Shown: positions 1,351-64,000 of the stretch, piece after piece | Layout of the letters: every line of letters begins with the position of its first letter | How positions within the stretch are numbered: the first letter of the stretch is position 1 | IMG/VR virus record: IMGVR_UViG_3300025732_000016 | Reading direction: 5' to 3' (one strand) | DNA from: a virus | Taxonomy: Duplodnaviria; Caudoviricetes | Length of the DNA stretch: 64,000 nt | Made by a program: the position numbers and the translations under genes | The notes under the pieces: generated by a model | What the model was told of the DNA's origin: nothing | What the model saw: only the letters and a program-made list of their open reading frames with translations | Database searches by the model: none

Positions 1351-1378
1351 ACGTGAGGCCAGCAGTTAAGGATAAGTA

Positions 1379-3266: not shown

Positions 3267-3296
3267 AAGACATTGTTGACAATTAGCGCAGATTGT

Positions 3297-6604: not shown

Positions 6605-6629
6605 TTCGCAAGATACAGAAGTTCAACTC

Positions 6630-11377: not shown

Positions 11378-11414
11378 GACGATCTCCGTGTGGCTTTTCA
11401 ATTCAAAAATAGAG

Positions 11415-15332: not shown

Positions 15333-17251
15333 CTAGATCTCTCTCTCCAACCGACCATTGAAGCCGGCTGTTCTCTTCTAATCTTCACGCTGGGAGTGGG
15401 ATTGTTGAAGTCAAGTCTCTTGTGGAAAATCCATCCTCCCATTTCACTTTCCATCTTCGCTGCAAGACTTCTGATTTCTTCTTCAGTAACTTCCGACCAT
15501 GACTTTTCGAAGAACATGTTATTCTCAGGAACGTCTTCTTGAGTTCTATTGTAGAGACTCATCCAGTGCTTTGACCAGTAATTTTTGTAAGTGTAGATCT
15601 TTCTCTCTATGTCATACCACGAGTAGTGATAAACTCCTGGCAGCTGCTCAGTGACAGCGTTAATCCACGATTCGTAATAAGCTAAAGCTTCTTCATTGCG
15701 CAAAAGCGCATGTTGTCTAGAGATCTCTCCTTCTCGAGACATAAAGGTCGCAAAGGGAACACTTTCTCCAGTGTCGCTGTAAATGTAATCGCAGCCATCA
15801 GAGCCAGAAGAATACATTGAGCCGTCAGCATCATAAGCTCTTTGGTCTAGTGGGACGCCATGAGTGATTCTTGGATTGTTGCGACTAAGCCTCCATTTCC
15901 ATGGGTTGACGTCAACTCTTACTTTCCCTTCTCGACCCCAAAATTCGACAAGTGGTAATGCGATAATGTCAACTTCTCTTGGGAAGCTCTTAACAAGATT
16001 TCTAATCTTCGAGTAATCTTCTTCATGAACTACCTCGTCGATATCAACTTGCCAGCAGAAGTCACCCGTGCAACGCTCTCGAGCAATCGCTTTCTGCTGT
16101 CCGTCATAAAGAGCGAATCTCTTGTCGTCCCAGTCTCTCGCGTGTTGAAACGGCTTCAGACGAGGCTCAGACTCAGCGAGCTCCTGCAGCTTCTCCCAGG
16201 TTCCGTCCGTTGACCCACCGTCAACGACGATGACTTCATCACAGAACCCGAGAAGAGAGTTGATGCTCTCAATCCAGGGATACCTCTGCTCAATGCAGTT
16301 CCTCGTCTGCGTGTAACCGCTAATCTTCGGTTCCCACTCCATTGCGCTCCTGATGCCGTTCCAGAATGTTTCCCTGGCGGCGTAAAGGTAGGATTCAGTG
16401 TCGAGTGGATCGCTGGACGTGAACCACTCCTCATTTGCATGCTCGACGTTGTCATTGGTGTGAAGCTTGCAACCGAGCAGCTTAGCCTCGATGACCATTC
16501 GAGGGCAAGTGTCGCCGCCCTTTGGGAGGTAGACGAGACCCTCAGCAGTCGAAAGCTTCGTGAGGAAGTCTCCAGGAGAGACTCCGTGGACTATCTCGTA
16601 GTCATGCCCCTGTGACTTGCACCACTCTACTGCGTCATCGACTCCCTTGATCCAGGACGTTGAGCCCAATACAATCCAGCCCTTTCTCTCAGCATTTGAG
16701 TTCTTCTCCCTGAGCTGCTTGAGAAGAACCCAGAAGTCCTCTTCGAAGACTGAGGACAGGACACTCTGTGGCACGTTCTCGAGAAATGGGAAGAGCTTCC
16801 AGTATCTCTTCTGCTGTCTCTCAGACATCCACCAGAGAGACTTTGCTCCAAGGTAGAAAGTCGAGGCGAGCTTGCCCGCACTGTCGTTCTGACAGTCACA
16901 GGGCTTCTTCTCTGCTACCTCGTGCTTCTCAGGAGAACGGTACTTGCAGAACTTGTAGTCGTACTCGAGCACTGAGTACTTCATGTTAGCAACTATTGTT
17001 GGGATGAGGTCTCTGTTCAACCCCGCCCAGTTCCCAAAGATCCAGAACTTGCTGTGACCCTCCTCAAGGTTCTGAAGAGAGACGTCCTTCGTGTGGAGTT
17101 TGAATACCCTGAATGGTGATGACTTTATGAGAGCCTCAGTTGTGAGCTCCGCGCCACCCACCAGGTCCTCAGCAAAGAAGTCTGCGACGAACACAACATC
17201 GCAGACGCTCGGAACGTGCTTGTTTTGAATTTGAAATTGGCTACTGAACAT
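15329..17251 (-). CDS. Two-domain glycosyltransferase (GT-B-like N-terminus fused to GT2 C-terminus)
   Basis: N-terminal 'GGAELTTEAL...DTCPRMVIEAKLLGC'; C-terminal 'SLLGFCDEVIVVDGGSTDGT...WQVDIDE'. Start taken as the ATG at 17251. Confidence 0.8.
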   Translation of the reverse strand: MFSSQFQIQNKHVPSVCDVVFVADFFAEDLVGGAELTTEALIKSSPFRVFKLHTKDVSLQNLEEGHSKFWIFGNWAGLNRDLIPTIVANMKYSVLEYDYKFCKYRSPEKHEVAEKKPCDCQNDSAGKLASTFYLGAKSLWWMSERQQKRYWKLFPFLENVPQSVLSSVFEEDFWVLLKQLREKNSNAERKGWIVLGSTSWIKGVDDAVEWCKSQGHDYEIVHGVSPGDFLTKLSTAEGLVYLPKGGDTCPRMVIEAKLLGCKLHTNDNVEHANEEWFTSSDPLDTESYLYAARETFWNGIRSAMEWEPKISGYTQTRNCIEQRYPWIESINSLLGFCDEVIVVDGGSTDGTWEKLQELAESEPRLKPFQHARDWDDKRFALYDGQQKAIARERCTGDFCWQVDIDEVVHEEDYSKIRNLVKSFPREVDIIALPLVEFWGREGKVRVDVNPWKWRLSRNNPRITHGVPLDQRAYDADGSMYSSGSDGCDYIYSDTGESVPFATFMSREGEISRQHALLRNEEALAYYESWINAVTEQLPGVYHYSWYDIERKIYTYKNYWSKHWMSLYNRTQEDVPENNMFFEKSWSEVTEEEIRSLAAKMESEMGGWIFHKRLDFNNPTPSVKIRREQPASMVGWRERSR

Positions 17252-17291
17252 GCAGAATAGTTGTCTTCTGCGCGTCACCAGTAAACAGAAG

Positions 17292-24590: not shown

Positions 24591-25046
24591 TTACCTTGCA
24601 CTCTTATCAGCCAGTGTTGAAGATACCCAAGAGTTAGGCTTCACCTGGCACTTGAAGCCGTAGGCTCCCACCATTGCAGTGAGCTCTTTTACGTACTTCG
24701 AAGACTTGTGGACGGCAGTGTTGAGATCGAGGTGAACCTCTGGGTCCCTTCCAAACTCATCTCGAATTTCGCTTGCAACTGTGAGAGATCTAACAGCCTC
24801 CTCAGTAAGCCGCTGGTGTAGGTGGCGAAAATCAGACTTTTGCGCCTGGTCCCTGACGTAGAAGAACCTGCCTCCCTTGCCCGGGTAGTACACTGCAATC
24901 ACTGTCGCAAACACCCACTGTCCACCGAGCATGTGTGAGTCTGATCCAACGAAGATCTGGACTTCCTTGTCACGAATGAGAGACTCGAGCTCTTCTGTTT
25001 TTGCCGTCTCTCCGCTTGGCCACTTCCACTTTCTTGTCGATAACAA
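24591..25046 (-). CDS. RNase H-like YkuK (DUF458) family protein
   Basis: 'IFVGSDS', 'FATVI', 'GGRFFY', 'RL.EEA.RSL', 'VHLDLN', 'VKPNSWVSS.LADK'. Confidence 0.8.
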   Translation of the reverse strand: MLSTRKWKWPSGETAKTEELESLIRDKEVQIFVGSDSHMLGGQWVFATVIAVYYPGKGGRFFYVRDQAQKSDFRHLHQRLTEEAVRSLTVASEIRDEFGRDPEVHLDLNTAVHKSSKYVKELTAMVGAYGFKCQVKPNSWVSSTLADKSAR

Positions 25047-26232
25047 GGGCGCCTCCCGTATTTCTAACTAGCTGTCTGAACGCTTCATACGTTGAGAGGG
25101 CAATTTTGTAAGAGTCACCTGGGTACGCCCTACACCCAATCATCGTGATTCCCTTTCTCCTTGACACGAGGAAGCATCTCATGCCATGGTCAAATCTTTC
25201 TTTCACTATCTCTCTTGTATCGCCGAACTCTTCACCGATGCAGACAGAAACTCTCCTCGAAGAGATTCTCGAGATGCGATTCTGCAACATTCGCAAGATA
25301 TCAGGATCGCTGAACTGTGAGATCTCACCCCGCAGCTTTCTCAATAACTCATCTCGCCCAGCAGTATCTCTCAAGTGAACCTTGAGCTTACCGTTCTCTA
25401 CGACAACATCGTGACAGTTAGAGTCGTCCTCGTGGGAGATGAGGTTGACAGTCTCCTGCCCAATGACCGTGCTCAAGTCTGAGATCGTAAATTCGTCCTC
25501 GACCGAGGTTCCGGGAGTGAGGGGCACGATGTCAAAAACTCCCCTCTGGTTGTTGGCGAAGATCGTGCTGGCCACCTCTGAAGAGAACGCTCTCGCAACG
25601 AGCAGGACTCGAGAATTGTCAAGTGAACACTTCTCGAGGAATGTGTTCACTTGACCGACGCTCTCGATGACCCCGTCAAAAACGACTATTTGTCTGGAAG
25701 TTAGGGATCGAGAGGTGTGAAAGCTCGGAGAGACTATCACTGGATAGGACGATGACTCGTCAACAGAGATGTGTGTAATGCCTCCGACTGAGACTGAGAC
25801 ATTCCCTGTGGCTCCCGCCTGCCCGATGCTGTCGAGTAACAGGCTTCTCACCGTCTCGTCTTGGACATCGTCGATGAGAGCCGGGAGGTCGCTCTCCAAC
25901 ATCGTCCTTGTACCCGATGCCACCAGTTTTTCGCCTGATAGAAGACGCAAGAAGAGGTATGAAGAGGCGGGTGAAGCCTGCTCAGCCCTGTACGCCGACA
26001 ACAGGACCAATGAGCGAGCGATTCTTTCAATGTCACTCTTGGACTTCCAAGACGACAGGACCCTGAGAGAGTCTGCGGGTGACCCTCCCAGTGCCCTGTC
26101 CTTGAAGACCTCGACTATCGAAGAACCGATAGTCTCGATAGTCCCTTGAGCTATCTTCCTCGCCGCGGCAAGGACAGACTCACCGTCACCAGTGAGTCGT
26201 CTAGCTGTCTCTCCAGAGGTTGTTGGCGGCAA
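24970..26232 (-). CDS. Highly divergent GroEL/Cpn60-like protein
   Basis: Apical-domain-like 'IVVFDGVIESV..V..FLEK...VLLVARAFSSEV..T...N..RG...IVP', then 'LQNRISRI...V.V.IG' (cf. LQERLAKL.GGVAVIKVG). Probable TTG start at 26232 with GAGGAG 10 nt upstream. Confidence 0.65.
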   Translation of the reverse strand: MPPTTSGETARRLTGDGESVLAAARKIAQGTIETIGSSIVEVFKDRALGGSPADSLRVLSSWKSKSDIERIARSLVLLSAYRAEQASPASSYLFLRLLSGEKLVASGTRTMLESDLPALIDDVQDETVRSLLLDSIGQAGATGNVSVSVGGITHISVDESSSYPVIVSPSFHTSRSLTSRQIVVFDGVIESVGQVNTFLEKCSLDNSRVLLVARAFSSEVASTIFANNQRGVFDIVPLTPGTSVEDEFTISDLSTVIGQETVNLISHEDDSNCHDVVVENGKLKVHLRDTAGRDELLRKLRGEISQFSDPDILRMLQNRISRISSRRVSVCIGEEFGDTREIVKERFDHGMRCFLVSRRKGITMIGCRAYPGDSYKIALSTYEAFRQLVRNTGGALVIDKKVEVAKRRDGKNRRARVSHS

Positions 26233-28126
26233 AGGTGATAATCTCCTCAGCAGATTCTGGTGTGTAGCCGTAGTCTTGTACAAGCGCATTGACCATTTCT
26301 GAGTACTTCTTCTGCTGCTCGTTGTCTCTGCTCTTTGACTTCGTGACAATTCGCGCCATGTCCTTCACTGAGGAGATGAGGTAGCCCTCGATCGCCTCAC
26401 GGAGGGGCTCGTAGGAGCGGTAGTCGACCTTCGTTCCGCGCCGAATCTTCGCGAACATGTAGGCCGTCACGTCAGCTCGGAACCCGTCCTTCATCGAGCC
26501 CGTGATCCCGATCTGCTCCTCGAGAGCCTTCATGAACTTCTCGTCAGGCTCTCTCTCCTCGGAGGTGACCCTGTCCTTCATCTTCTGTCGAGTCGTGAAG
26601 GCCTCTGCGTTGTCGAGGTAGTTGTCGAAGAGAGACTGGGCCTGCTCCTCGTAGGCGGTGACGAACGCCTTTGCGATCTCTCCCTCGAGGATCTTCAGGT
26701 ACTCCTCACGGATGACCTTCTGGAGGATCTCGAGATAGTTCTTCTTCTTCTCCTCGTCGACAACCTGCTCCTTCACCTGCTTGATGAGAGCTTCGACGAC
26801 TCTCATCGGAGTGATGAAACCCTTGTCAGAGTCGGTGAGTGCAGAGTCAATTGCCTTCGTGATGAATCGGGTAGAGATTCCCTCCATACCCTCGTGCTTT
26901 GCCTCATCACGGAGGTCAGTGATGTCGACCTTGCGCGTCCTGCCCTTCTCGACAATCTCCTGGCCGTCGTAGATCTTCATCTTGGTGAGGAGGTCACACT
27001 TCTGGGAAGGCTTGAGGCGGCTCATCACCGAGAACATTGCCGCGACCTTGATCGTATGGGGAGCGAGGTGATACTTGAAGTCGGACTTGCGAAGCATCTT
27101 CTCGTAGATCTTCATCTCCTGCGTGAGCTCCAGGACGTATGGAACCTCGATCTTCACGACGCGATCGAGGATGGCCTCGTTCGTGTGCTCAGACTTGAAG
27201 CGATTCCACTCTGCCTCGTTGCAGTGTGAGAGGATGACACCGTCGAAGTAGAGCATCGAGTTCTTGCCCGGTGTCGGAACATTCTTCTCCTGGGTCGCAG
27301 TGAGGATCGTGTGGAGGAACTCGATCTCGTTCTTGAAGATCTCGACAAATTCCACCACACCGCGGTTACCGACGTTGAATGCACCGTTGAGGTTCAGGAC
27401 TCGGGGATCGTCCTCGGAGAACTTGTCCAGCTTTGAGATGTCCTCTGAGCCGATGAGGGCCGAAACGTCCTGAGAGTTGGCATCCATGGGAGGGACGACC
27501 GCGATACCCCTGCGCGCTCTCTGCGAGAAGGATGAGCGGACCACAGGGAACTTCTCGTACTCGCCCTTGAACTCTTCCATGAGCCTGTATCGACAGACCG
27601 GACAGAGGTCTCCCTCGATGTGGACACCGAGGATCTTCTCGAACTCCTCCCTCAATGACCTCGGAAGGAGGTGAAGCGGCTCCTCGCGAACTGGGCAGCC
27701 ATCGAGATGGTAGACGGGCTCTGCAGCCTTCTCAAGAGCCTTCTTCACCGCGTCGGCAAGTGCGCTCTTTCCTGATCCGACAGGTCCCATGAGAAGCAGG
27801 ACCTGCCTGCTTTCCTCACCCTTCAGGGCAGCGGACTTCAGGAATCGCATGAGCTTTGCAATGACGCGCTCATGGCCGTAGAATTCGTCCCTGAAGTAGC
27901 TGTAGGTCTTTAGCTTGTCGCTGCCGAACAGCTTTCGGCAGCGAGGATCAGTCTCATCCATTGTGCTCACACCGTATGACTCTACGGCGTCAACGAGTCT
28001 CCTCGCGGCGAGCTTTGTCACGTCAGGATCTTCCTTGACGAGCTTCAGGTAGTCGATGAAACTACCCTTCCAAGAGTCCTTCTGCGACTCAACCCTTTGC
28101 TTCTTAATGATGTCGAGAAAATCCAC
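26201..28126 (-). CDS. prkA: PrkA/YeaG family AAA+ protein (serine kinase annotation)
   Basis: Walker A 'GPVGSGKS', 'CPVREEPLHL', 'GNRGVVEFVEIFK', 'LLTATQE'-like 'ILTATQE', 'H.NEAEW', 'EAILDR', 'EGMEGISTRF'. Confidence 0.93.
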   Translation of the reverse strand: MDFLDIIKKQRVESQKDSWKGSFIDYLKLVKEDPDVTKLAARRLVDAVESYGVSTMDETDPRCRKLFGSDKLKTYSYFRDEFYGHERVIAKLMRFLKSAALKGEESRQVLLLMGPVGSGKSALADAVKKALEKAAEPVYHLDGCPVREEPLHLLPRSLREEFEKILGVHIEGDLCPVCRYRLMEEFKGEYEKFPVVRSSFSQRARRGIAVVPPMDANSQDVSALIGSEDISKLDKFSEDDPRVLNLNGAFNVGNRGVVEFVEIFKNEIEFLHTILTATQEKNVPTPGKNSMLYFDGVILSHCNEAEWNRFKSEHTNEAILDRVVKIEVPYVLELTQEMKIYEKMLRKSDFKYHLAPHTIKVAAMFSVMSRLKPSQKCDLLTKMKIYDGQEIVEKGRTRKVDITDLRDEAKHEGMEGISTRFITKAIDSALTDSDKGFITPMRVVEALIKQVKEQVVDEEKKKNYLEILQKVIREEYLKILEGEIAKAFVTAYEEQAQSLFDNYLDNAEAFTTRQKMKDRVTSEEREPDEKFMKALEEQIGITGSMKDGFRADVTAYMFAKIRRGTKVDYRSYEPLREAIEGYLISSVKDMARIVTKSKSRDNEQQKKYSEMVNALVQDYGYTPESAEEIITFAANNLWRDS

Positions 28127-28134
28127 GTTCCCTC

Positions 28135-29460
28135 CTACGAGATCTCAAATTCTTCATTTTCTACGTCAGTGAACAGCTTGACGGGACCGTGCCAGATGTT
28201 CCTGATGAGCTTGACGCAGTTGTCTGCGTAATCGAGCTCGAGGTCCCTTCCGTCATGTTCATGCCGCAGTTCTAATGTATTGTCCTTTGCCACGTGATCG
28301 ACGTATATCGTCGGAATCATATTGCCGGCAATGCTCTGCAGGAGGGCGGCCCTCACCTCCTGCCAGCTTTCGTCGTCTTCGACAATGTCGTCAACTGTCC
28401 AATCAGGGTTCTTCTTGCCCTTCGGACTGAAGGTGAAGAGGTTGAGCTCTCTCGCCTTCTCCTCGGTGAGGTACTGCATGATGAAGTTCTCGTCGTTGCA
28501 GACCTCTCTCGCAAGGAAGCACTCCTCTATGCCGAATCTCTTCTCGATGTCCTTGAAGATTTCAAAACCGAGGTGGTATGGGTTGATCTTGAGACCCCAC
28601 GGTCGAAGGACAGCGTTGTGAGTCTTGAGGAAAGGGAGGTGATGCTCATCAGCGAGCTCAAGGTCATGGAGAATTCTGTAGTGCCAGAAGCTCGCCCACC
28701 CCTCATTCATAACCTTTGTCCTGATCTGCGGCCAGAAGTAGAGAGACTCGTCATGGACTATCGAGATGATGTCCCGCTGCCAATCTGTGAGCTTGTGATT
28801 GTTGTCAAGGACAAACTGGAGGATGTCATACTCAGGCTCAAGCGGGAGGTCATCGATATTGAAGTCCTTCCACTCTCCCTTCTCGTCGTTCTTGATGAGG
28901 TCGATGTACTTCTTACGAAGCTCTCTCTCGGACGGTCTCGTCCTGCCGCGACGATCGGTCTGGTAAGTGAATGCGTGGCAGGCATCGATGATCTTCTCCA
29001 CGGCCTCAATCCCTATCGTCGGGTCCTCGATGTAGGCCTTAATCCGCTTTCCGGCATTCCTGAACCTCATCGTGACGGTCGCGGCGTCAGTGTCCTTGAA
29101 CGTCCGATTGTTCTTGAAGAAGTCCGAGTGGCCGACGCAGTGCGCCATGATGAGAATCTGGAGGTACAGCGGGTTCTCCAGCATCAGGTATGCGATTGAC
29201 GGATCAGAGTTGATGATGAGCTCATACGGAAGGCCCTCAGCGCCCGCGTTGTACATGAAGTGCGTCCTCTCGAACGTCTTTCCGTACGACCAGTGTGCAT
29301 AGTGAGAGGGCATCCCGTGGTAAGCCATGTGACCGATCATCTCACGGTAGTCACAGGTCTCATAGGCTATCGGGTACCAGTCGAGGCCGTGCTTTCTCGC
29401 GATCTCGCAGATCTTCTCGTCCCATTCCTCGAGATCACTCAAGTTGTAGTCACCCATCAC
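28135..29460 (-). CDS. spoVR: SpoVR/YcgB family protein
   Basis: 'GMPSHYAHWSYGK', 'YELIINSDPSIAYLM..N', 'AHCVGHSDFFKNN', 'TKVMNEGWASFWH', 'NPYHLG', 'HDGRDL'. Confidence 0.93.
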   Translation of the reverse strand: MMGDYNLSDLEEWDEKICEIARKHGLDWYPIAYETCDYREMIGHMAYHGMPSHYAHWSYGKTFERTHFMYNAGAEGLPYELIINSDPSIAYLMLENPLYLQILIMAHCVGHSDFFKNNRTFKDTDAATVTMRFRNAGKRIKAYIEDPTIGIEAVEKIIDACHAFTYQTDRRGRTRPSERELRKKYIDLIKNDEKGEWKDFNIDDLPLEPEYDILQFVLDNNHKLTDWQRDIISIVHDESLYFWPQIRTKVMNEGWASFWHYRILHDLELADEHHLPFLKTHNAVLRPWGLKINPYHLGFEIFKDIEKRFGIEECFLAREVCNDENFIMQYLTEEKARELNLFTFSPKGKKNPDWTVDDIVEDDESWQEVRAALLQSIAGNMIPTIYVDHVAKDNTLELRHEHDGRDLELDYADNCVKLIRNIWHGPVKLFTDVENEEFEIS

Positions 29461-30632
29461 TCACTCCCAAAGAACTTGCTAAAGACAGGCCAAACGTCAT
29501 CCTTACTCACCAGCGTGGCAGTGCGAAGAACTGGCGAGAGAGCCTTGAGATTGTTCATGAGCTTCGAGGCAGAGTCACTCTGCCAAGCGGGAGTCGAGCC
29601 CTTCGGCTTGATCTCACAGTAGCCGACCATCTGGCTGATGTCACAGAGATCCCTGTACATGTCGAAGGCCTTCGCGTTGTCTTCTTCGAAGTTGTCGCCG
29701 TCCGTGCAGTGGAACACATAGACGTTCCAAGCCGAAGGATGGTACCGCTCGTTCGCAATCTCAATCGCGAGCTCAGGAGCCGAGGAGACGTGCGTGCCAC
29801 CGGATGATCCCCTCTTGAAGAAGGAGTCCTCATCAGTCTCGAAAGCCTCAGTCGTGTGACCGATGAAGACAATCTCGACCTTCTCGTACTTGTGGCGGAT
29901 GAACTGGTAGAGGAGGAAGTAGAAGGACCTTGCGATGAACTTGATGTCCTGGGTCATCGAGCCGGAGACGTCCATCATGAAGAAGATGACGGCGTTTGTC
30001 GCCTCCTTCGGTTTCGCCTTGATGTGGTGGTACCGGAGGTCGTTGTCGTGGAATGGGAAGACCTCATTGCCGTCCTCATCCACCTCCACCTCTCCGGCCC
30101 TTCGTGCTGCCGCGAGGCGCTTTATCCGCTGGATGGCAGACTCTCTCTTGTCGAGCCGCGGTGGAATGCCCTGGGGGCGTGTGCCATGTCGCTTTGGCCT
30201 CTCCTCGAGAACTGTTCGCAGCTTCTTCCTCTCTAGCTCTGGGAGATTCAACGAGGAGAAGAGGTACTCTGCGAGCTCTTCGAGGGTAATCTCGACCTCG
30301 TAGAACTCCTCTCCCTTGTCCTTACCAGCCTTGCTGCCGGAGCCCTGCCCCTGCTGTTGACCCTTCCTTACGACCTGCCCCTTTTGGATGTCGGCGTTAG
30401 GAGCAGAGCCCACCTGCTTCTGACCCTCGTTGTCGCCATAGACGAACTGCCACTCCTTGATGCCACGAACAGGAATGCGGATCTTCTTCTTCCCATCCTG
30501 CCCAATGATCGACTCTTCAGAGACGATATCTGTGATGCCGTCTTTGATCGCTTTCTCAATCTTTTGCTTGTGACGAGAACGGTCCGCTGCGGAGCGGTCT
30601 GCTGAAGTCTTGTGTTCACGGAAGATAGACAT
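29457..30632 (-). CDS. YeaH/YhbH (DUF444) vWA-domain protein
   Basis: 'D..RH..KI...I', 'IPVRGIKE..F', 'LNLPEL..K', MIDAS 'MDVSGSM', 'SGGT..SSA', 'DGDN'. Confidence 0.92.
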   Translation of the reverse strand: MSIFREHKTSADRSAADRSRHKQKIEKAIKDGITDIVSEESIIGQDGKKKIRIPVRGIKEWQFVYGDNEGQKQVGSAPNADIQKGQVVRKGQQQGQGSGSKAGKDKGEEFYEVEITLEELAEYLFSSLNLPELERKKLRTVLEERPKRHGTRPQGIPPRLDKRESAIQRIKRLAAARRAGEVEVDEDGNEVFPFHDNDLRYHHIKAKPKEATNAVIFFMMDVSGSMTQDIKFIARSFYFLLYQFIRHKYEKVEIVFIGHTTEAFETDEDSFFKRGSSGGTHVSSAPELAIEIANERYHPSAWNVYVFHCTDGDNFEEDNAKAFDMYRDLCDISQMVGYCEIKPKGSTPAWQSDSASKLMNNLKALSPVLRTATLVSKDDVWPVFSKFFGSE

Positions 30633-57990: not shown

Positions 57991-59309
57991 GCCTTCTCCT
58001 TCCAGGTGTCGTAAGCGGCGAGGACCTTGGGGTCCACATCAGAGGGGTCTCGGAAGCGGCAAAATACGGGAAAGCGGAGCTTCCCATCCGGGGTGAACGG
58101 GGGCTGGTGTTCGCATTCCACGATCCGACCGATGTAGGAATCAGGCGCCGAGTTCACCTCGGTCTTGAGTCGATCGGAGTATCCACCACCGACCCGGGTA
58201 ACCACGCCATTGGGCGTGAGGACCTTGAATCCACCGAACTGGCCTGCCCGCTTCGTGGCCTTTGACGCCTCGTACCAGCCGACCACCACACCCTCCTCGG
58301 TGGCCACCGGCTTGAGCTTGAGGATGGCCGAGGAGCGCTTCCACTGGTACTTGGCTTTGACGTCCTTGAGCATCACACCCTCGTAGCCGGCGTCGAGGCA
58401 GGTCGAGTAGAACTCTCGGAGCTCATCCTCATTTGCGCAGGTCTTCGCCTTCACGTACCGGAAGGGACCCTGGGAGAGCATTGGGCCAGCCCCGATGATG
58501 GTGACCAGGTCTGCCAGACGCTGCTCGTAGGTGAGCTCGGTCCTTTGGGCCTGCCAGTCAGTGAGGGGAACGCAATCGAAGACGTGGTAGCACATGGTCG
58601 AGTCGTCCTTCTTGGACTTGGCCGACATCACCACCGAGGCCGACTCATTCCAGTCCTCACCCATGGCCTCGCCGTCGAGGACGAAATCATCGGAGGAGAG
58701 GGACTCGATTGCCGCCTTGATGCGGGGGAGAGTCTCGAGCACCGTGCCATTGCGAGTGTAGAGAGTGACCTCACTCTTGGACTTCACCGCCACCACTCGG
58801 AGGCCATCGAGCTTCGCCTCGACTCGGACGGGATAGGTCACCGGCTCGGAGAAGACGAAGTTTCCGTTGACTCCCTTGGTGGGGAGAGTGCCGGCGAGAG
58901 CCACCGCGAATGGGACCACCGTGCCCGGCCAGAGCTTGTTGATCGTGGTCACCGAGACCCCGCAGCGGAGGTTCCGCCAGAGGAGGCGTTCGAGCCACTT
59001 CTGGGCGACCCCGTCACCGGACTGGATGAGATCGGAGACCGCCTTCTTGGCTGCGTTACCTTTGAGTTCCCGCTTGTCGAGGCGAACCAGGAGATCGAGG
59101 AACTCGGTGACCAGGTCATCGCCGTGACCCCGGGTGCCGGGCGCCTTCGGGCGATCGTACTTGGCCACGCCCCAGTTCTTCCAGGGATCGAAGGCAAGCG
59201 AGAAGAAGCGGTGGAGGAGCGGATTGCCGCGATTCTCCTCCATGACGGCGCCCTTTGCGTTCCGGCCGCCGTCCGCCTCGAGAGTTTCCAGGATGTCCAG
59301 GACTTCCAT
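57987..59309 (-). CDS. ATP-dependent DNA ligase
   Basis: 'EAKLDGLR' (KxDG), 'VLDGE', 'YHVFD', 'EGVMLK', 'KRS..ILKLKP', OB domain 'LRFPVF..FR'. Confidence 0.95.
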   Translation of the reverse strand: MEVLDILETLEADGGRNAKGAVMEENRGNPLLHRFFSLAFDPWKNWGVAKYDRPKAPGTRGHGDDLVTEFLDLLVRLDKRELKGNAAKKAVSDLIQSGDGVAQKWLERLLWRNLRCGVSVTTINKLWPGTVVPFAVALAGTLPTKGVNGNFVFSEPVTYPVRVEAKLDGLRVVAVKSKSEVTLYTRNGTVLETLPRIKAAIESLSSDDFVLDGEAMGEDWNESASVVMSAKSKKDDSTMCYHVFDCVPLTDWQAQRTELTYEQRLADLVTIIGAGPMLSQGPFRYVKAKTCANEDELREFYSTCLDAGYEGVMLKDVKAKYQWKRSSAILKLKPVATEEGVVVGWYEASKATKRAGQFGGFKVLTPNGVVTRVGGGYSDRLKTEVNSAPDSYIGRIVECEHQPPFTPDGKLRFPVFCRFRDPSDVDPKVLAAYDTWKEKA

Positions 59310-59310
59310 G

Positions 59311-59362
59311 ATTCCTCCTTACATTATGATAATAACACATTAGAGCACAAATTGGAATAGGC
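59311..59362 (-). promoter_or_regulatory. 52-bp promoter/leader cassette, copy 2
   Basis: Gapless match to 55812..55863; directly upstream of the ligase gene. Confidence 0.75.
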
Positions 59363-59436
59363 TGGGGACCTTTTTGCAAAGAAATGTTTACTTAGTTGAG
59401 GCAACGCTAGAATGATCGGTTGCCCAAGGAGCAGAT

Positions 59437-59925
59437 ATGGATCCGTTAGACACGACTGGCGAGCTCGTTGAACCGCCTCCCGCTGATGAAGCTGCCGCGC
59501 CTGTTGTCGAGGGATCCTCGACTGGTGCAAATCTCGTTGAAGTTGCTGATGCAAAATCGCAAACTATCGCGCTTGACAAGGATGGCGACAAGATTTACCC
59601 GAGCCTGTATGACACAGTCCCAACAACATTCGGGGCAATCGTTCTCGGCGGTCTCATCATCGGCGGCATTCAGTGGATAGTGAAGAAGATCTTCGAGCGT
59701 GAAAAGAAGGAGCACAAGGCTCTCACGCAGTTTGTCACTTCGATGTTTGCTTTCATCATTGGAGTTTGGATCGCTGACAAGATCATCGCGGGACCCACAG
59801 CTAACATTCTCGACCCAGCTGAGAGCAAGGAACTTCTCACCTTCATCAAGGACATCACGCTGATGGTGTTCGCATACTACTTCGGAACAAAAGCGAACGT
59901 TCCAAAGGATGACGTCGATGGATAA
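59437..59925 (+). CDS. Membrane protein with three TM segments (holin-like)
   Basis: Acidic N-terminus, TM helices, 'DITLMVFAYYFG'. Confidence 0.6.
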   Translation: MDPLDTTGELVEPPPADEAAAPVVEGSSTGANLVEVADAKSQTIALDKDGDKIYPSLYDTVPTTFGAIVLGGLIIGGIQWIVKKIFEREKKEHKALTQFVTSMFAFIIGVWIADKIIAGPTANILDPAESKELLTFIKDITLMVFAYYFGTKANVPKDDVDG

Positions 59926-60403
59926 CGCAGCAGACATCATTAGCGCCGCAGGAGGCGGCAACATCTGGGCCGTGCTCGGTCTCGCTATCTCAGGCGCCCT
60001 CGGCAAGTACGCTTGGGACTTCTACAAGAAAAAGGCTGACCTCAACTTCAAGGAGAAGGACAACCTCCGCAAGGACAGCAAGGAAGAGCGTCTCCTCGAC
60101 CGCAAGGAGAAGAACGAGTTCAAGGACGACCTGAAGGAGAGAGTGGCCGCTCTTGAAGTGAAGCTCGAGGCGGCATTGCAGGCGAAGGAGGACCTCCTCG
60201 AGCAGGTTGGAGAGCTGAAGGCGAAGCTCGCCAAGATCGAAACCAAGCTCGAGATCCTCCTCGCGGGCGGCAAGGTTGCGCCAGAGCCGCCCACAGACGA
60301 GAAGCCGAAACCCAGGGCAAAAGCGAAGGCCGCGCCTGCACCCACACCAGCTCCAGAGCCGACGCCCGCTCCGAAGCGTGGCCGAGCCAAGAAGAATGGC
60401 TGA
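59918..60403 (+). CDS. TM plus coiled-coil protein with Pro/Ala/Lys tail
   Basis: 'IWAVLGLAISGALG..AW', then a heptad region 'LKERVAALEVKLE...LKAKLAKIE'. Confidence 0.7.
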   Translation: MDNAADIISAAGGGNIWAVLGLAISGALGKYAWDFYKKKADLNFKEKDNLRKDSKEERLLDRKEKNEFKDDLKERVAALEVKLEAALQAKEDLLEQVGELKAKLAKIETKLEILLAGGKVAPEPPTDEKPKPRAKAKAAPAPTPAPEPTPAPKRGRAKKNG

Positions 60404-61073
60404 TCCTTGTTTCATCAAATCCGGTGAGATTGTCACAATAGACGACCCACGTTTAAGTGACACTGATTGCGTGATAGAGGCGGGCGTCATCATTCGTCCG
60501 CCCGCAGACGAGACAACAGTCAAGGAAGTCGAGAAACATGTTGAGGAGAAGACAGAGGTCAAGGAGATAAAGCACACTGTCAAGAAGAGGGTGGAACTAC
60601 CCTTAGAACCAGAGCCTCCTCCCGCTGTAGTTGAGACTCCTCCAGTCAAGACTGTTGTTACAAATCCGACAACAGTCTCTACAGCAGCAACAGCGGTTCC
60701 TGCCCCTGCTCCAAAGGAAGAAATTTACTTTGGGATGTCACCTGAAATGGCGACTGTTGCAGCAGTTGGCACAATCGCTGCAGTGGGTGGTGCGGTCGCA
60801 GCTTCAACGATGGGAGGTTTCAGTGCTGTTCAAGCAAAGCTCGCTTCGATCTTTGGTTCAAAAGCTGCTGCAACTGCTACAGCGGCGGTCGCAGTGACGG
60901 CGGGAACCATCGCCGCCGTGAAGGCCCTCGAGGGAAAGGTGGGCAAGTTCGAGGAGGACATGAAGAAGGCGAAGGAGGAGGTCGGTGGTGCAGCCTCTTC
61001 AATCGACCGGATCGATGCCCTACTGAGCCGGCTTGGCGGCGACAACGACGACGAACTCGACCCTTCGGTTTAG
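60396..61073 (+). CDS. Membrane-associated hypothetical protein
   Basis: Start re-called at 'MADPC' (60396). Pro/Thr linker, two Ala-rich hydrophobic segments, C-terminal coiled coil. Confidence 0.6.
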   Translation: MADPCFIKSGEIVTIDDPRLSDTDCVIEAGVIIRPPADETTVKEVEKHVEEKTEVKEIKHTVKKRVELPLEPEPPPAVVETPPVKTVVTNPTTVSTAATAVPAPAPKEEIYFGMSPEMATVAAVGTIAAVGGAVAASTMGGFSAVQAKLASIFGSKAAATATAAVAVTAGTIAAVKALEGKVGKFEEDMKKAKEEVGGAASSIDRIDALLSRLGGDNDDELDPSV

Positions 61074-64000
61074 GGCCTGCCCCTCGGGAGTCCCGGAGGT
61101 GTCGAGCGGTGCCGTGTCTCCCTTACCCTCGATGGAGATGCGCCCCGCATCGACACCCTTGCCGATGAGGTAGTCAGCAGCGACCTTCGCTCTTTCCCGT
61201 GAGAGTTCCTCAGGGTGCTTGAACTCCATTTCCGAGGAGTCCGCGTATCCGACGACCTTCACGCCGTATCCCGGTCGAAGATTAAGGACCGTCCAGACAC
61301 CGTCGAGTGTCGCCCGGGCCTTAGTGTTGAGCTTCGTGTCGCCTGGAAGGAAACCGATTCCGACCTCCTGCTTCGGAGGTAAGGTGACATCAGGCTTCGC
61401 CGGGACTACTATCACGATGGGCTGGAGCGGTTCTTCCTGAACCTTACACTCACATGCGGTCTGGGGCGAAACTTCGGGAGTAGCGTCTTCCTCTTCCTCA
61501 TCTGAGGGACCGAAAGTAATCTGCATTGTTGCCTGCCAATCTCCATCGCCAGGTTGACGAATGACACCCTTGCTCAGTGCACCGCCAATCGAGAAGTTGC
61601 CGACAGTCCACTCCAGTGAAGACCCTATGAAGAGAGATGAGACAGGCGACTCTCCAAGGTTGTGAAACGCCTGCGAGTCTACTCCAATCGTGAAGTCGCC
61701 GACTGAATAAGATCCTGCCGCCGTGATGTAGGGCCCGGATCCAAGCTCGTATCCTTCGAGATCGACCTTCGGGTAGACCATGAAACCAGCCCCGAGGAGC
61801 CCCCCGACGTTACCGAACTGGGCCTCGGCTCCTGCTTCGAGTGTCGTTGCCCACCCAGGATGTGAGACACCGAGTCCTACTCCGGTGGGAGCAACCAACG
61901 ACACATCGCCGTAGGCTCCCAGGCCATCGACACTGAAGGCTTTCGAGTTCACGCGGAGACCGCCCCAGACATCACCGAGGCGAACTACTCCATCGTTAGC
62001 GATGGATGCTGGCACGCCGAAGTCGACAGAGAAGTGCTCGAAAGTGTAACGATTGGTCGTCCAGCCCCAGTAGACGTCATCGATGACCACGACCTCGTCA
62101 CCCTGCGGGTTGATGTAGGAGAGGGGATCGGTGACCACACCACCGACGATGGCAGTCTCATCTCCGAGGAACCTCGACTCACCCCTCGGTGGGAGGGGCA
62201 CCACACTCATCTCGGGGACCTCACCCCCAGAAGCTCCCATCAGGAGCGGGAATCCGAGGAGGAAAGAGAAGAGGCCCCTCCGCCTTGAGGCGAGCACCGC
62301 GCCGAGGGTCATGAGAATGAGGCTTCCGCTTCCACCGCCGCCGGTCGTGGAGCAACCGCCGCCCGGGACATATGACCCCTTCGGAGCGGGATTCTCGTCC
62401 GTGTCATCGACCGGTGGGGCGCCAGTCTCGTCGGCACTATCAACGGCTGAATCGGAACCGGTATCGATCGAGGTATCGTGGCCACTGTCGCCCGTGTCGA
62501 TCACCACACCGCTGTCACCAGAATCTCCTGTATCGATTGGCCTGTCATCGACAGGATCACATGCATCACCGACTCCGTCTCCATCAACGTCGGACTGGTC
62601 ATTGGAGAGACCTGGACAGTTGTCGGTCACATCGTCAGCCCCGTCTCCGTCGGCGTCTGGATCGCAGATATCACCAAGACCGTCTCCGTCGATGTCTGCT
62701 TGGTCGGAGTTGAAGGCATCCGAGCAGTTGTCAGATAGACCGCAGAGCCCGTCCTCATCAGCGTCGTTTGTCGCATCATCCGGACAGGCATCGACATCAC
62801 CACAGATTCCGTCGGCATCGATGTCGTTGTCAGCATCGAACTCGCATGGATCGGTGTCGGCACATGCTCCGTCACCATCGACATCGTCGCTTGGATCGAG
62901 CGGGCAGACGTCCAGTGATTCACAGGCTCCGTCGCCGTCCCGATCATCGAGGGAGTCATTGGGGCAGATGTCCTCGTCACCGCAGGTCCCGTCACCGTCG
63001 ATGTCGTTCAGCTCATCGAGCGGGCAGGTGTCACAGTCATCTGAGAGGCCGTCCTCGTCCGAATCTACCGTGTCATCAGCGCCCGGGCAGATATCTGCAG
63101 AATCGCAGGATCCGTCACCGTCGGAATCATCGGCTGAGTCCGCCGGGCAGGCATCGCAACCATTCGGGATGCCATCACTGTCAGTATCGAGTGTGTCATC
63201 AGCGCCCGGGCAGATATCGTCGGAGTCGCATGAACCATCCGCATCACTGTCACCGAGTGCATCGAATGGGCAGGTGTCGCAACCGTCGGGGGTGTAGTCA
63301 CCATCAGTGTCGATGCGGTCATCTGAGCCGGGGCAGATGTCGTTCTCAGCACAGACGCCATCGGAATCGGAGTCATTGTCTGCGTCATACTTGCAGGCAT
63401 CGCAACCATTCGGGATGCCATCTGAGTCGGAATCCACCAGGTCACTGTAGCCCTCGCAGACATCCACATCTCCGCAGACTCCGTCACCGTCAGCGTCATC
63501 GTATGGGTCTGACGGGCAAGAGTCGCAGCCATCTGGCGTGTAATCAGCGTCCGCATCAGCGAGGTCATCGTATCCTTCGCAGGCATCAACATCACCGCAG
63601 ACACCGTCGGCATCTGCGTCGTCATACGGATCGGATGGGCAGGAATCGGAGGAGTCTGGGATTCCGTCGCCGTCCGCATCCGGTTCAACAGGGGCTTCGG
63701 CGCAGTCCGTTGCAGCGGAGACCGCAGTCTCGTCAAGGGTGTAGATGACCCTGAATGTCTCGGACTGCCCAGGAGCCATATCACCGAGGCTCACCGCAAG
63801 CGAGATCGCCGCATCATCGGAGACCGAAGATCCCACTGTGGAGTAGAATCCTGAGCCGTTCCAGATGTCCGAGGCATCGGTGTTGAAGAACCCACCATGG
63901 GTGACCCTTGCACGACTGTCGGAGGCGATGAGGTAGAGATCCGCGCCATCTCCCCCGGTCGCCCTAACTGAGGCAAGATCGGTGGATGAGTCAGGTTGCG
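61020..64000 (-). CDS. Large surface protein (5'-truncated by the window): TSP3 repeats, DTG linker, internal MYXO-CTERM-like motif, beta-barrel-like region, OmpA C-terminal domain
   Basis: The frame is open to 64000. About 19 DxDxDG..D.C units; 'GGGCSTTGGGGSGSLILMTLGAVLASRRR'; amphipathic beta region; OmpA motifs 'V.VVGYAD', 'LS.ERA..AADYL..KGV...RI...GKG', 'ALNRRVEF'. Confidence 0.88.
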   Translation of the reverse strand, partial: QPDSSTDLASVRATGGDGADLYLIASDSRARVTHGGFFNTDASDIWNGSGFYSTVGSSVSDDAAISLAVSLGDMAPGQSETFRVIYTLDETAVSAATDCAEAPVEPDADGDGIPDSSDSCPSDPYDDADADGVCGDVDACEGYDDLADADADYTPDGCDSCPSDPYDDADGDGVCGDVDVCEGYSDLVDSDSDGIPNGCDACKYDADNDSDSDGVCAENDICPGSDDRIDTDGDYTPDGCDTCPFDALGDSDADGSCDSDDICPGADDTLDTDSDGIPNGCDACPADSADDSDGDGSCDSADICPGADDTVDSDEDGLSDDCDTCPLDELNDIDGDGTCGDEDICPNDSLDDRDGDGACESLDVCPLDPSDDVDGDGACADTDPCEFDADNDIDADGICGDVDACPDDATNDADEDGLCGLSDNCSDAFNSDQADIDGDGLGDICDPDADGDGADDVTDNCPGLSNDQSDVDGDGVGDACDPVDDRPIDTGDSGDSGVVIDTGDSGHDTSIDTGSDSAVDSADETGAPPVDDTDENPAPKGSYVPGGGCSTTGGGGSGSLILMTLGAVLASRRRGLFSFLLGFPLLMGASGGEVPEMSVVPLPPRGESRFLGDETAIVGGVVTDPLSYINPQGDEVVVIDDVYWGWTTNRYTFEHFSVDFGVPASIANDGVVRLGDVWGGLRVNSKAFSVDGLGAYGDVSLVAPTGVGLGVSHPGWATTLEAGAEAQFGNVGGLLGAGFMVYPKVDLEGYELGSGPYITAAGSYSVGDFTIGVDSQAFHNLGESPVSSLFIGSSLEWTVGNFSIGGALSKGVIRQPGDGDWQATMQITFGPSDEEEEDATPEVSPQTACECKVQEEPLQPIVIVVPAKPDVTLPPKQEVGIGFLPGDTKLNTKARATLDGVWTVLNLRPGYGVKVVGYADSSEMEFKHPEELSRERAKVAADYLIGKGVDAGRISIEGKGDTAPLDTSGTPEGQALNRRVEFVVVVAAKPAQ
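63070..63422. repeat. Exact DNA repeats within the TSP3 coding array
   Basis: 26-bp repeat at 63070..63095 and 63193..63218; 30-bp repeat at 63147..63176 and 63393..63422. Confidence 0.85.

What the first reader, a model, noticed from the sequence alone, without database searches (positions are those of the whole stretch)
61020..64000. Phage-encoded TraA/TraB-like adhesin with an internal MYXO-CTERM motif
Seen: an N-terminal domain (truncated), about 19 Cys/Asp TSP3 repeats, a DTG linker, GGGC-(G/S)-hydrophobic-RRR (about 62275-62380), a second hydrophobic stretch, a beta-barrel-like region and an OmpA domain, all in one ORF. Established: MYXO-CTERM is a myxobacterial surface-sorting tag. TraA (Cys-rich repeats, MYXO-CTERM) and TraB (beta-barrel, TSP3 repeats, OmpA) drive kin recognition and outer-membrane exchange in Myxococcus. 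Inference: the phage displays a single-chain TraAB-like adhesin on infected cells to aggregate hosts, hijack membrane exchange or alter kin recognition. This also points to a Myxococcota host, for which huge phages are poorly described.
Basis: partly seen in the sequence, partly recalled or inferred. Interest (0 to 1): 0.8.

Follow-up and report, generated by a model that had tools for sequence, protein, structure and literature searches.

The report
Phage-borne fused adhesin-and-anchor envelope precursor
A large freshwater phage carries one gene that joins a myxobacteria-style surface adhesin, still bearing its "end-of-protein" sorting tag, to an outer-membrane barrel and cell-wall anchor through a second export signal; the design is known from Myxococcus, but finding it conserved in phages is new and hints at the host.

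Summary
The minus-strand ORF 61020-63998 (992 aa here, about 1193 aa in full) holds about 19 Cys/Asp TSP3-like repeats and a DTG linker. A GGGC-helix-RRR motif follows and passes the MYXO-CTERM models when excised. Then come a signal-peptide-like segment ending in GAS|GG, a predicted 12-14-strand outer-membrane barrel and an OmpA domain.

The fusion is not an artefact. At least 13 distinct phage-type sequences keep it, with GCS and LMGASGGEVPEMSV invariant. Phage genes flank it on both sides.

The nearest cellular relatives of its head domain are Myxococcota proteins that end in true MYXO-CTERM tags. One is followed by a separate TraB-like barrel/OmpA gene, and one is fused in frame to it.

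It is not a TraA or TraB homologue. The HMMs fail, the head is a galactose-mutarotase-like supersandwich rather than PA14, and the barrel is an orphan.

The design is already known. MXAN_5598 is described in one paragraph of PMC11980579, and this scan has met it before in at least 12 myxobacterial genomes. The phage-borne family is the new part.

The most likely mechanism is that one precursor is cut in the inner membrane into a lipid-anchored surface adhesin and a wall-bound barrel. A Myxococcota host is plausible but unproven.

The parts
63705..63998 (-). C-terminal third of the head domain (residues 1-98 of the window ORF). The rest, with the signal peptide MRKILLSLLFLTPTLAQA|SGFCEV, lies about 600 nt beyond the window edge.
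   Evidence: P0057 ends with P0001. The start was read on contig L086. The AF2 model of the homologous head has pTM 0.83. It matches galactose-mutarotase-like supersandwich domains of GH94 and GH116 enzymes at TMq 0.5-0.57.
62550..63704 (-). Stalk of about 19 Cys/Asp calcium-binding-type TSP3-like repeats (residues 99-483).
   Evidence: Pfam TSP_3 scores 31.7 bits. NCBIfam MtsC scores 72 bits, below its cut-off of 350.
62364..62549 (-). Asp/Thr/Gly/Ser-rich low-complexity linker (residues 484-545). It is hypervariable, with indels, among relatives.
62277..62363 (-). Internal MYXO-CTERM-type tag, GGGCSTTGGGGSGSLILMTLGAVLASRRR (residues 546-574), with Cys549 as the candidate lipidation site.
   Evidence: TIGR03901 scores 22.5 against 20 and TIGR03382 scores 21.9 against 15.85 on the excised piece. 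G-C-S is invariant in 14 fused relatives.
62229..62276 (-). Internal signal-peptide-like segment, G-LFSFLLGFPLLMGAS (residues 575-590). The RRR before it serves as the n-region, and the predicted signal peptidase I site is GAS|GG.
   Evidence: Hydropathy is. P.LMGASGGEVPEMSV is invariant in 14 relatives. Analogous AxA-type sites follow internal tags in other families and in the bacterial fusion L011.
61494..62228 (-). Predicted outer-membrane beta-barrel of about 12-14 strands (residues 591-835). The last strand, ...MQITF, ends in an aromatic residue.
   Evidence: The AF2 model has pLDDT 65-82 over the barrel. Foldseek against PDB gives FapF at 2e-9, then COG4313, NanC and porins. AFDB barrel/OmpA clusters also match. 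Only 2 clusters were found among 1.84 billion representatives.
61359..61493 (-). Acidic, Pro-rich linker with a conserved CxC (residues 836-880).
   Evidence: pLDDT below 50.
61065..61352 (-). OmpA-like peptidoglycan-binding domain (residues 883-978). The GYAD and NRRVEF motifs are kept.
   Evidence: Pfam PF00691 scores E 7.8e-15.
61020..61022 (-). Stop codon of the ORF. It lies inside the 3' end of the convergent plus-strand ORF 60276-61073.

Best explanation
The gene encodes a two-in-one envelope precursor of the MXAN_5598 / TraA+TraB design, carried by a large freshwater phage.

Proposed pathway (all steps inferred):
1. The N-terminal signal peptide sends the chain through Sec.
2. The tag helix stops transfer. 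The Arg cluster stays in the cytoplasm and doubles as the n-region of a second signal peptide, which re-initiates export. The chain therefore sits as a helical hairpin in the inner membrane, with both large parts in the periplasm.
3. A host myxosortase-type CPBP protease cuts after the lipidated tag Cys. Signal peptidase I cuts at GAS|GG.
4. The N-terminal product is a glycan-binding-type supersandwich head on a stalk of about 19 Ca-binding repeats. It is moved to the cell surface and held by its lipid.
5. The C-terminal product is inserted by BAM as a 12-14-strand barrel. Its OmpA domain grips peptidoglycan.

Shown: the parts themselves, their conservation, the phage context, and the existence of split and fused cellular counterparts.

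My best guess at the role is that the phage decorates the infected cell with a wall-anchored adhesin. This would change what the cell sticks to, or what can reach its surface (adhesion to neighbours or particles, or exclusion of other phages).
For: - Parts and HMM scores.
- Barrel fold.
- Conservation of the fusion: at least 13 distinct fused sequences of 1157-1254 aa keep the junction. G-C-S and P.LMGASGGEVPEMSV are invariant, while the linker is hypervariable.
- Independent confirmation of the junction: a lake-metagenome contig from another study bridges it without indels.
- The tag works as a real C-terminal tag in relatives. P0066 (61% identical), P0067, P0068, P0140 and P0163 stop 4 residues after the basic cluster.
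- Recurrence of the junction design: other phage-type families repeat GGWGC-helix-RR(N)KK followed by an h-region and an AxA site (AFA|G, AKA|Q, VFA|E, GAA|P) before unrelated C-terminal domains.
- Cellular counterparts: Myxococcota MAGs carry the same head domain (42-46% identity) ending in true MYXO-CTERM. L012 has a separate signal-peptide/barrel/TSP3/OmpA gene 49 nt downstream. L011 has the same two genes fused in frame with ...RRRRR-ATPGRTKGGKASR-WLPFLLVALAALSIPRGAHA|Q. Each of these three genomes has one myxosortase core match above the cut-off.
- Literature: MrtX cleaves MYXO-CTERM, and MXAN_5598 has an internal tag plus barrel plus OmpA, proposed to be processed (PMC11980579). TraA and TraB form a 1:1 pair from overlapping genes (PMC3325183, PMC12045341).
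- Phage context on both flanks.
Against: - No cleavage, lipidation or surface display has been shown for this protein, or for any internal MYXO-CTERM.
- The tag scores lie near the cut-offs (15-24 bits across relatives). Single MYXO-CTERM hits outside Myxococcota were judged false positives by the model's author.
- The host is unknown. The phage GC of 53% is far below the 65-73% of the Myxococcota loci, and a related phage contig is 32% GC.
- No myxosortase gene is seen in the window or in the related phage fragments.
- The barrel model is of moderate confidence (8 sequences, pLDDT 65-82). It has no detectable relative outside this phage group.
- The biological role is a guess.
Confidence: 0.6

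Rival explanations
1. The protein is not cut. The tag helix and the second hydrophobic segment form a permanent inner-membrane hairpin, so both halves stay tethered in the periplasm. The OmpA domain binds the wall and the repeats act as a periplasmic calcium-binding scaffold.
For: Two hydrophobic stretches separated by RRRG are the classic shape of a helical hairpin. No processing has been shown for any internal tag. Tag scores are borderline.
Against: - The second segment is only about 13 hydrophobic residues and is followed by an invariant small-residue site, like a cleaved signal peptide.
- The C-terminal domain folds as an outer-membrane barrel, which must leave the inner membrane.
- Split versions exist in which each half is an independent exported protein.
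- The G-C-S signature would not need to be invariant for a plain anchor.
Confidence: 0.15
2. The precursor design is as proposed, but the host is not a member of Myxococcota. The Cys-helix-Arg tag would then be served by another, undescribed sorting enzyme, or it is a relic of a gene captured from a myxobacterium and now used only as a stop-transfer anchor.
For: - Phage GC is 53%, and a related phage contig with the same head, tag and internal signal is 32% GC, against 65-73% for the Myxococcota loci.
- The phage is widespread in lake-water metagenomes.
- The head-domain tree does not nest the phage clade inside a Myxococcota clade.
- Cys-bearing C-terminal tags on homologues also occur in a Campylobacteraceae MAG.
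- The nearest cultured phages by helicase infect Acidobacteriota, Bacillus and Xanthomonas.
Against: - The best-matching sorting-signal model for every tag tested is MYXO-CTERM.
- The highest identities of the head domain are to Myxococcota.
- Among the loci whose gene ends I inspected, true MYXO-CTERM tails occurred in the Myxococcota-type loci. Of those, one has the barrel/OmpA partner split and one fused.
- The signature residues are under strong constraint in the phage family.
Confidence: 0.3
3. The protein belongs to the lysis or envelope-disruption machinery rather than to surface display. It would link the outer membrane and the wall, much as spanins link membranes.
For: In the related contig L003 the gene directly upstream matches an endolysin PHROG (4e-18). 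GH46 lysozyme-like genes lie near the homologues in L005 and L006. Three small membrane-protein ORFs converge on the gene in the window.
Against: A 1193-aa protein with a lectin-like head and a long Ca-binding stalk is unlike any known holin, spanin or disruptin. On this phage's own contig no endolysin family is recorded for the genes just upstream. Cellular counterparts are ordinary chromosomal adhesin/anchor pairs.
Confidence: 0.07
4. The single ORF is an assembly or sequencing artefact that welds two adjacent genes.
For: In M. xanthus traA and traB overlap by 4 nt. One relative (L005) has two overlapping ORFs next to a C6 run.
Against: The same in-frame junction occurs in at least 13 non-identical sequences from JGI, ENA, NCBI and Logan assemblies. 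It is also seen in three IMG/VR contigs and in an independent contig that bridges it without indels.
Confidence: 0.02

Closest known systems
MXAN_5598 of Myxococcus xanthus (internal MYXO-CTERM, then outer-membrane barrel and OmpA domain; PMC11980579, Discussion)
   Same: The order of parts is the same: a large adhesin region, a MYXO-CTERM motif in mid-protein, an outer-membrane beta-barrel and an OmpA wall-binding domain. It is read the same way, as a TraA+TraB-like gene fusion whose N-terminal part is processed and surface-anchored.
   Different: MXAN_5598 is chromosomal and sits in a cell-division cluster. This one is in a phage. No NCBIfam equivalog links them; the only matches are MtsC at 71 bits and OmpA-type models. 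The head domain and the barrel differ. Processing is untested in both.
TraA/TraB outer-membrane exchange pair of M. xanthus (PMC3325183, PMC12045341)
   Same: The two-component logic is the same. A signal-peptide/head/Cys-rich-stalk/MYXO-CTERM surface protein is paired with a signal-peptide/barrel/OmpA anchor. They are encoded back to back and act 1:1.
   Different: TraA and TraB are two overlapping genes, not one. TraA has a PA14-like head and TIGR04201 repeats, whereas here there is a supersandwich head and TSP3-like repeats. The TraB HMM matches only the OmpA part (30.5 bits against 700). TraB has TSP3 repeats between barrel and OmpA, and here that linker has none. Nothing here shows homotypic recognition or membrane exchange.
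Uncharacterised Myxococcota head/MYXO-CTERM proteins with TraB-like partners (loci L012 split, L011 fused)
   Same: The head domain is homologous (42-46% identity). They have Cys-rich acidic repeats and a MYXO-CTERM tag. The barrel/OmpA partner is either 49 nt downstream or fused through a basic stretch plus a signal peptide.
   Different: Their partner is a recognisable TraB relative (206-229 bits) with TSP3 repeats. The phage barrel shows no similarity to it. Their repeats are of TIGR02232 type. GC is 69-73%.
Outer-membrane proteins and sortase substrates of huge phages (bioRxiv 10.64898/2026.10.24.761521)
   Same: Large phages encode OmpA-type and other barrels, and also signal-peptide proteins with C-terminal sorting signals. 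These were proposed to decorate the host envelope.
   Different: That work reports separate 8- to 22-strand outer-membrane proteins and Gram-positive-type sortase B substrates. A term search found no 'MYXO', 'Myxococc', 'thrombospondin' or 'adhesin' in it, so I saw no sign of a MYXO-CTERM tag or a fused adhesin-anchor precursor there. I did not read the whole text.

Membership tests
MYXO-CTERM sorting domain (TIGR03901 / TIGR03382) | Signature with an invariant Cys, then a hydrophobic helix, then an Arg cluster | tested here: met
   GGGC-STTGGGGSG-SLILMTLGAVLAS-RRR at residues 546-574. G-C-S is invariant in 14 relatives.
MYXO-CTERM sorting domain (TIGR03901 / TIGR03382) | HMM score above the curated cut-off | tested here: met
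   The excised piece scores 22.5 against 20 and 21.9 against 15.85. Within the long protein, TIGR03382 still passes at 17.5 and TIGR03901 falls to 16.4. Relatives score 15-24 bits.
MYXO-CTERM sorting domain (TIGR03901 / TIGR03382) | Located at the C-terminus of the protein | tested here: not met
   418 residues follow the Arg cluster. Unfused relatives such as P0066 do end there.
MYXO-CTERM sorting domain (TIGR03901 / TIGR03382) | N-terminal signal peptide on the same protein | tested here: met
   MRKILLSLLFLTPTLAQA|SGFCEV on contig L086. Homologues P0034 and P0035 have the same. No predictor was run.
MYXO-CTERM sorting domain (TIGR03901 / TIGR03382) | Organism encodes myxosortase (MrtX/MrtC), which cleaves the tag | not testable with these tools
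   The host is unknown and no genome is held for the window. No multi-helix CPBP-like ORF is in the window, and none is in the related phage fragments. Three Myxococcota MAGs with homologues each have one hit above the cut-off.
TraA (outer membrane exchange receptor) | PA14-like variable head domain | tested here: not met
   The head model (pTM 0.83) matches galactose-mutarotase-like supersandwich domains. No PA14 structure is among the top 50. No Pfam family matches.
TraA (outer membrane exchange receptor) | TIGR04201 Cys-rich repeats and a match to the TraA family model | tested here: not met
   NCBIfam scans of the head, the repeats and residues 1-1075 list only MtsC, Omp28_seleno and MYXO-CTERM-type models.
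TraB (NF033763) | Family HMM at or above 700 bits over barrel, TSP3 and OmpA | tested here: not met
   It scores 30.5 bits, with profile positions 427-498 (the OmpA part) only. The barrel gives no BLAST or hhalign similarity to TraB-like P0175 and P0176.
TraB (NF033763) | Architecture: signal peptide, outer-membrane barrel, OmpA wall-binding domain | tested here: met
   Signal-like segment with a GAS|GG site. Barrel fold. OmpA. The TSP3 linker of TraB is absent here.
OmpA-like domain (PF00691) | Pfam gathering score, with the conserved Asp and Arg of the peptidoglycan site kept | tested here: met
   It scores 55.5 bits against 27.2. GYAD and NRRVEF are present and invariant in relatives. The role of these residues is from my own knowledge of OmpA-like domains and was not tested.
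Classical (type Va) autotransporter | Passenger joined to a C-terminal 12-strand barrel by a helix that fills the pore, with no internal export signal | tested here: not met
   The barrel is not C-terminal, because an OmpA domain follows. The junction is a hydrophobic hairpin with an Arg cluster and a signal-peptidase-type site. Split two-gene versions exist. No autotransporter Pfam family matches.

The most novel reading that the evidence does not exclude
A whole group of large freshwater phages uses the pairing of a sorting tag with an internal signal peptide as a general cassette. It would deliver two stoichiometric envelope proteins from one gene: a host-mimicking, lectin-headed adhesin and an exchangeable anchor. 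These would rewire the contacts of infected myxobacteria-like cells. For example, they could glue infected cells to uninfected kin to seed the next round of infection, or mask the receptor against rival phages.
Probability: 0.2. Interest if true: 0.8.

Novelty: new variant of a known kind. Interest (0 to 1): 0.58.

Why it matters
Three reasons.

1. It moves a design so far noted only in myxobacterial chromosomes into viruses. That design is an internal MYXO-CTERM tag that splits one precursor into an adhesin and its anchor. The phage family is compact, abundant and conserved, and its junction has only a handful of invariant residues. That makes a clean test case for whether internal sorting tags are really cut.

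2. It adds a concrete case to the recent claim that huge phages remodel the host envelope.

3. The gene is one of the few host clues for this uncultured lake phage of more than 200 kb. It points to Myxococcota or a neighbour with a myxosortase-type enzyme. If that holds, it offers a handle on phages of social, predatory bacteria.

Tried and rejected
- No genome is held for the window.
- An exact 42-mer from the window edge is not in IMG/VR. Megablast of 59000-64000 against GenBank phages found nothing.
- tblastn of the whole protein against cultured phages found only OmpA domains, plus the head domain in one 642-kb uncultured phage.
- The helicase's nearest cultured phages are jumbo phages of Tunturiibacter, Bacillus and Xanthomonas, at 31-36% identity. 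They give no host clue.
- A regex scan of all frames of the window and five loci found no other credible Cys-helix-Arg tag.
- A hydropathy scan found no CPBP-like multi-helix ORF in the window.
- The TraB family search of phage fragment G001 gave no match.
- The phage barrel profile (A5) gave nothing in 3 Myxococcota MAGs or in 201 sampled Myxococcota genomes. With no positive control, this says little.
- hhalign of the phage barrel against TraB-like barrels gave probability 0.2%.
- Complex prediction of the barrel with the stalk end gave no verdict. The score was 0.00 and the partner pLDDT was 28.
- Laid contigs from two metatranscriptome libraries cover parts of the gene with 0-3 differences. 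Contigs of RNA libraries cannot show transcription, and they do not cover the junction.
- Pfam found nothing in the C-terminal halves of the other internal-tag families or in P0174.
- P0003, P0004 and P0005 looked like stand-alone barrel/OmpA genes. P0003 begins 17 nt from a contig end. P0004 and P0005 lie on contigs of 1.6-2.1 kb that I did not fetch and are probably fragments too.
- The reading of L005 as a frameshifted fusion was considered, because a C6 run lies at the overlap. I dropped it because joining the frames would remove any second export signal.

Full report
**What is there**

The minus strand of 61020-63998 is one open frame of 992 codons that runs off the window.

Pfam places an OmpA domain at residues 883-978 (E 7.8e-15) and finds TSP_3 repeats. 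A motif count gives 19-20 units of about 20 residues of the form DxDxDGxCxxxDxCP. The region is 32% Asp and 9% Cys, and an Asp/Thr/Gly/Ser linker follows.

Residues 546-574 read GGGCSTTGGGGSGSLILMTLGAVLASRRR, at window 62363-62277. Residues 576-590 form a second hydrophobic stretch, LFSFLLGFPLLMGAS.

Cut out so that it ends at the Arg cluster, the motif scores 22.5 bits on TIGR03901 MYXO-CTERM (cut-off 20) and 21.9 on TIGR03382 (cut-off 15.85). No other sorting-signal model competes. In its long context TIGR03382 still passes, while TIGR03901 drops to 16.4.

**The full gene**

A protein-collection search returned P0057. It is 1185 aa, listed without source as the window's own protein, and its last 992 residues are P0001.

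Its contig L086 shows an ATG 8 codons further upstream. This gives MRKILLSLLFLTPTLAQA|SGFCEV and a protein of about 1193 aa.

**Folds**

An AlphaFold2 model of residues 530-992 was built from an 8-sequence alignment. It gives a long antiparallel meander with pLDDT 65-82 over residues 612-829. Foldseek matches it to 12-strand outer-membrane barrels: FapF at 2e-9, then COG4313, NanC and porins. AFDB barrel-plus-OmpA clusters also match.

By sequence the barrel is an orphan. HMMER over 1.84 billion representatives found only two clusters, both of this phage type.

The head domain was modelled from 15 sequences (pTM 0.83). It is a galactose-mutarotase-like supersandwich, as in the N-terminal domains of GH94 and GH116 enzymes. 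It is not a PA14 domain.

**Not an artefact, not host flank**

At least 13 non-identical sequences of 1157-1254 aa share the whole architecture. In an alignment of 14 junctions, the linker is hypervariable with indels and the two hydrophobic segments vary freely. G-C-S of the signature, a basic cluster, and P.LMGASGGEVPEMSV stay fixed.

A contig from another lake study bridges the junction without indels.

The window carries phage genes: PhoH, helicase, ATP-dependent ligase, a virion structural protein and several strong PHROG families. On this phage's own contig and on the related IMG/VR contigs, the other flank carries an AAA ATPase, phrog_1569 and an endolysin-like gene. The refuter "flanking host DNA" fails.

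**What the junction is**

Three comparisons bear on this.

1. Close relatives of the adhesin half stop four residues after the basic cluster. These are P0066 at 61% identity, P0067, P0068, P0140 and P0163. There the motif is a real C-terminal tag.

2. Other phage-type families with the same head repeat the pattern GGWGC-helix-RR(N)KK. It is followed by a second hydrophobic stretch and an AxA-type site (AFA|G, AKA|Q, ANA|Q, VFA|E, GAA|P) before unrelated C-terminal domains. One such gene sits on a PhoH-bearing, phage-like contig of 32% GC.

3. A scan of one genome per species found the head domain in 201 stretches. Nine of the 11 highest-ranked loci (42-46% identity) are Myxococcota by record title or by the tree's taxonomy.
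   - Several of those proteins end in textbook MYXO-CTERM tags (L007, L009, L012, L019, L027, L081).
   - In L012 a signal-peptide/barrel/TSP3/OmpA gene starts 49 nt downstream.
   - In L011 the same two genes are one frame, joined by ...VLRRRRR-ATPGRTKGGKASR-WLPFLLVALAALSIPRGAHA|QVGTLDRF....
   - Those partner proteins hit the TraB model at 206 and 229 bits. This is below the 700-bit equivalog cut-off, so they are TraB relatives and not TraB.
   - All three genomes tested have one myxosortase core match above the cut-off, while none of 14 control genomes does.

Together these show that the internal motif is a C-terminal sorting tag. It has been joined to the signal peptide of the next gene, and the Arg cluster serves both.

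**Mechanism**

I infer a Sec-inserted hairpin that is cut twice. A myxosortase-type protease cuts at the tag, as MrtX does for TraA (PMC11980579). Signal peptidase I cuts at GAS|GG.

This yields a lipid-anchored surface adhesin and a barrel with a wall-binding OmpA domain, in 1:1 amounts. None of these steps has been tested for any internal tag.

The barrel's last strand ends ...MQITF, an aromatic end of the kind BAM substrates carry. That is my reading of the sequence, not a test.

**Known or new**

Earlier notes of this scan led me to a paragraph in PMC11980579, which I read. MXAN_5598 of M. xanthus has an internal MYXO-CTERM followed by an outer-membrane barrel and an OmpA domain. The authors compare it with TraA plus TraB and propose processing.

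The scan has also met the design in at least 12 myxobacterial genomes, and as unchecked first-reader notes in one other phage genome. So the design is known.

The new parts are a conserved family in large freshwater phages, its orphan barrel and its lectin-like head.

A recent preprint reports outer-membrane proteins and sortase substrates in huge phages. A term search found no mention of MYXO-CTERM, Myxococcota, thrombospondin or adhesin in it.

**TraA/TraB membership fails**

- The TraB HMM scores 30.5 bits, on the OmpA part only.
- No TraA or TIGR04201 match appears.
- The head is not PA14.
- The barrel shows no BLAST or profile similarity to TraB-like barrels.
- MtsC, a TSP3/MYXO-CTERM cohesion protein, is the best named match at 72 bits against 350.

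**Host**

For a Myxococcota host:
- the tag model;
- the identity ranking of the head domain;
- the split and fused barrel/OmpA partner, seen in two of the Myxococcota loci I inspected.

Against:
- The head-domain tree leaves the phage clade (19 rows, full support) in an unresolved three-way split with a Myxococcota clade and a Bacteroidota-rich clade.
- Phage GC is 53% (60% in the gene) against 65-73% in the Myxococcota loci, and a related phage contig is 32% GC.
- The phage occurs in lake-water metagenomes of about 20 studies.

I put a myxosortase-bearing host at roughly 55-60%.

**Role**

The role is unknown. A wall-anchored, glycan-binding-type adhesin on infected cells could change adhesion or block other phages. 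The endolysin-like neighbour in one relative and the small convergent membrane proteins keep a lysis-linked role alive at low odds.

Noticed in passing
window 59437-61073 (+): Three tightly packed plus-strand ORFs encode small membrane proteins and converge on the adhesin gene. They are 59437-59925 (two hydrophobic helices), 59909-60403 (N-terminal helix, coiled-coil-like, Pro/Lys-rich tail) and about 60390-61073 (two helices). The last overlaps the adhesin's 3' end by 54 nt. The arrangement is conserved in L001, L086 and the contig of P0002. It might be a holin/spanin-like set.
   Followed up: partly
L003 6907-7497 (+); L005 615-1319; L006 13645-14361: In relatives, a lysozyme-type gene lies next to the adhesin gene. 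It is an endolysin PHROG at 4e-18 in L003 and Glyco_hydro_46 in L005 and L006. No such family is recorded for the genes just upstream on the window phage's own contig L086.
   Followed up: partly
proteins P0070, P0073, P0074, P0090-P0092, P0100, P0101, P0119; locus L006 10001-12922: Other phage-type families carry an internal GGWGC-helix-RR(N)KK tag, then a second signal peptide with an AxA site, then C-terminal domains of 350-500 aa without OmpA and without any Pfam match. Most share the same head domain, but P0100 and P0101 have a different N-terminal region. L006 is 32% GC. The tag-plus-internal-signal cassette seems to be reused with different partners.
   Followed up: partly
L005 4146-5087 (+): The unfused relative P0066 ends in a true C-terminal tag. 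The next ORF overlaps it by 26 nt in another frame beside a C6 run. That ORF lacks a convincing signal peptide and encodes a beta-rich region plus a Pro-rich linker unrelated to the window's barrel.
   Followed up: partly
window 26201-30632 (-): Three consecutive genes match PHROGs 22605, 35217 and 19072 very strongly (E 1e-93 to 1e-141). The third also hits a 'sporulation protein' PHROG. A GroEL-like ORF (24970-26349) overlaps the first. Earlier notes read this as a PrkA/YeaH/SpoVR set.
   Followed up: no
window 76-17278 (-): A long run of overlapping minus-strand genes has 44-50% GC, lower than the rest of the window. It includes glycosyltransferases and a Nol-like carbamoyltransferase (E 3e-125). 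This looks like a phage-borne glycan-building cluster that could act on the same cell surface.
   Followed up: no
LR756502.1 415691-416572 (hit H16): A 642-kb uncultured huge phage in GenBank encodes the same head domain (35.5% identity over 290 aa). The head is therefore shared among distant huge phages.
   Followed up: no
L010 341-6442 (Campylobacteraceae MAG, 38% GC): A 2034-aa homologue of the head domain ends in ...GEQCQTSDNVPVLGGISAFLIMLLTGFMGIFLLRKKEK. This is a Cys-bearing helix-plus-basic tail outside Myxococcota, so similar tags may have a wider range than the curated model implies.
   Followed up: no
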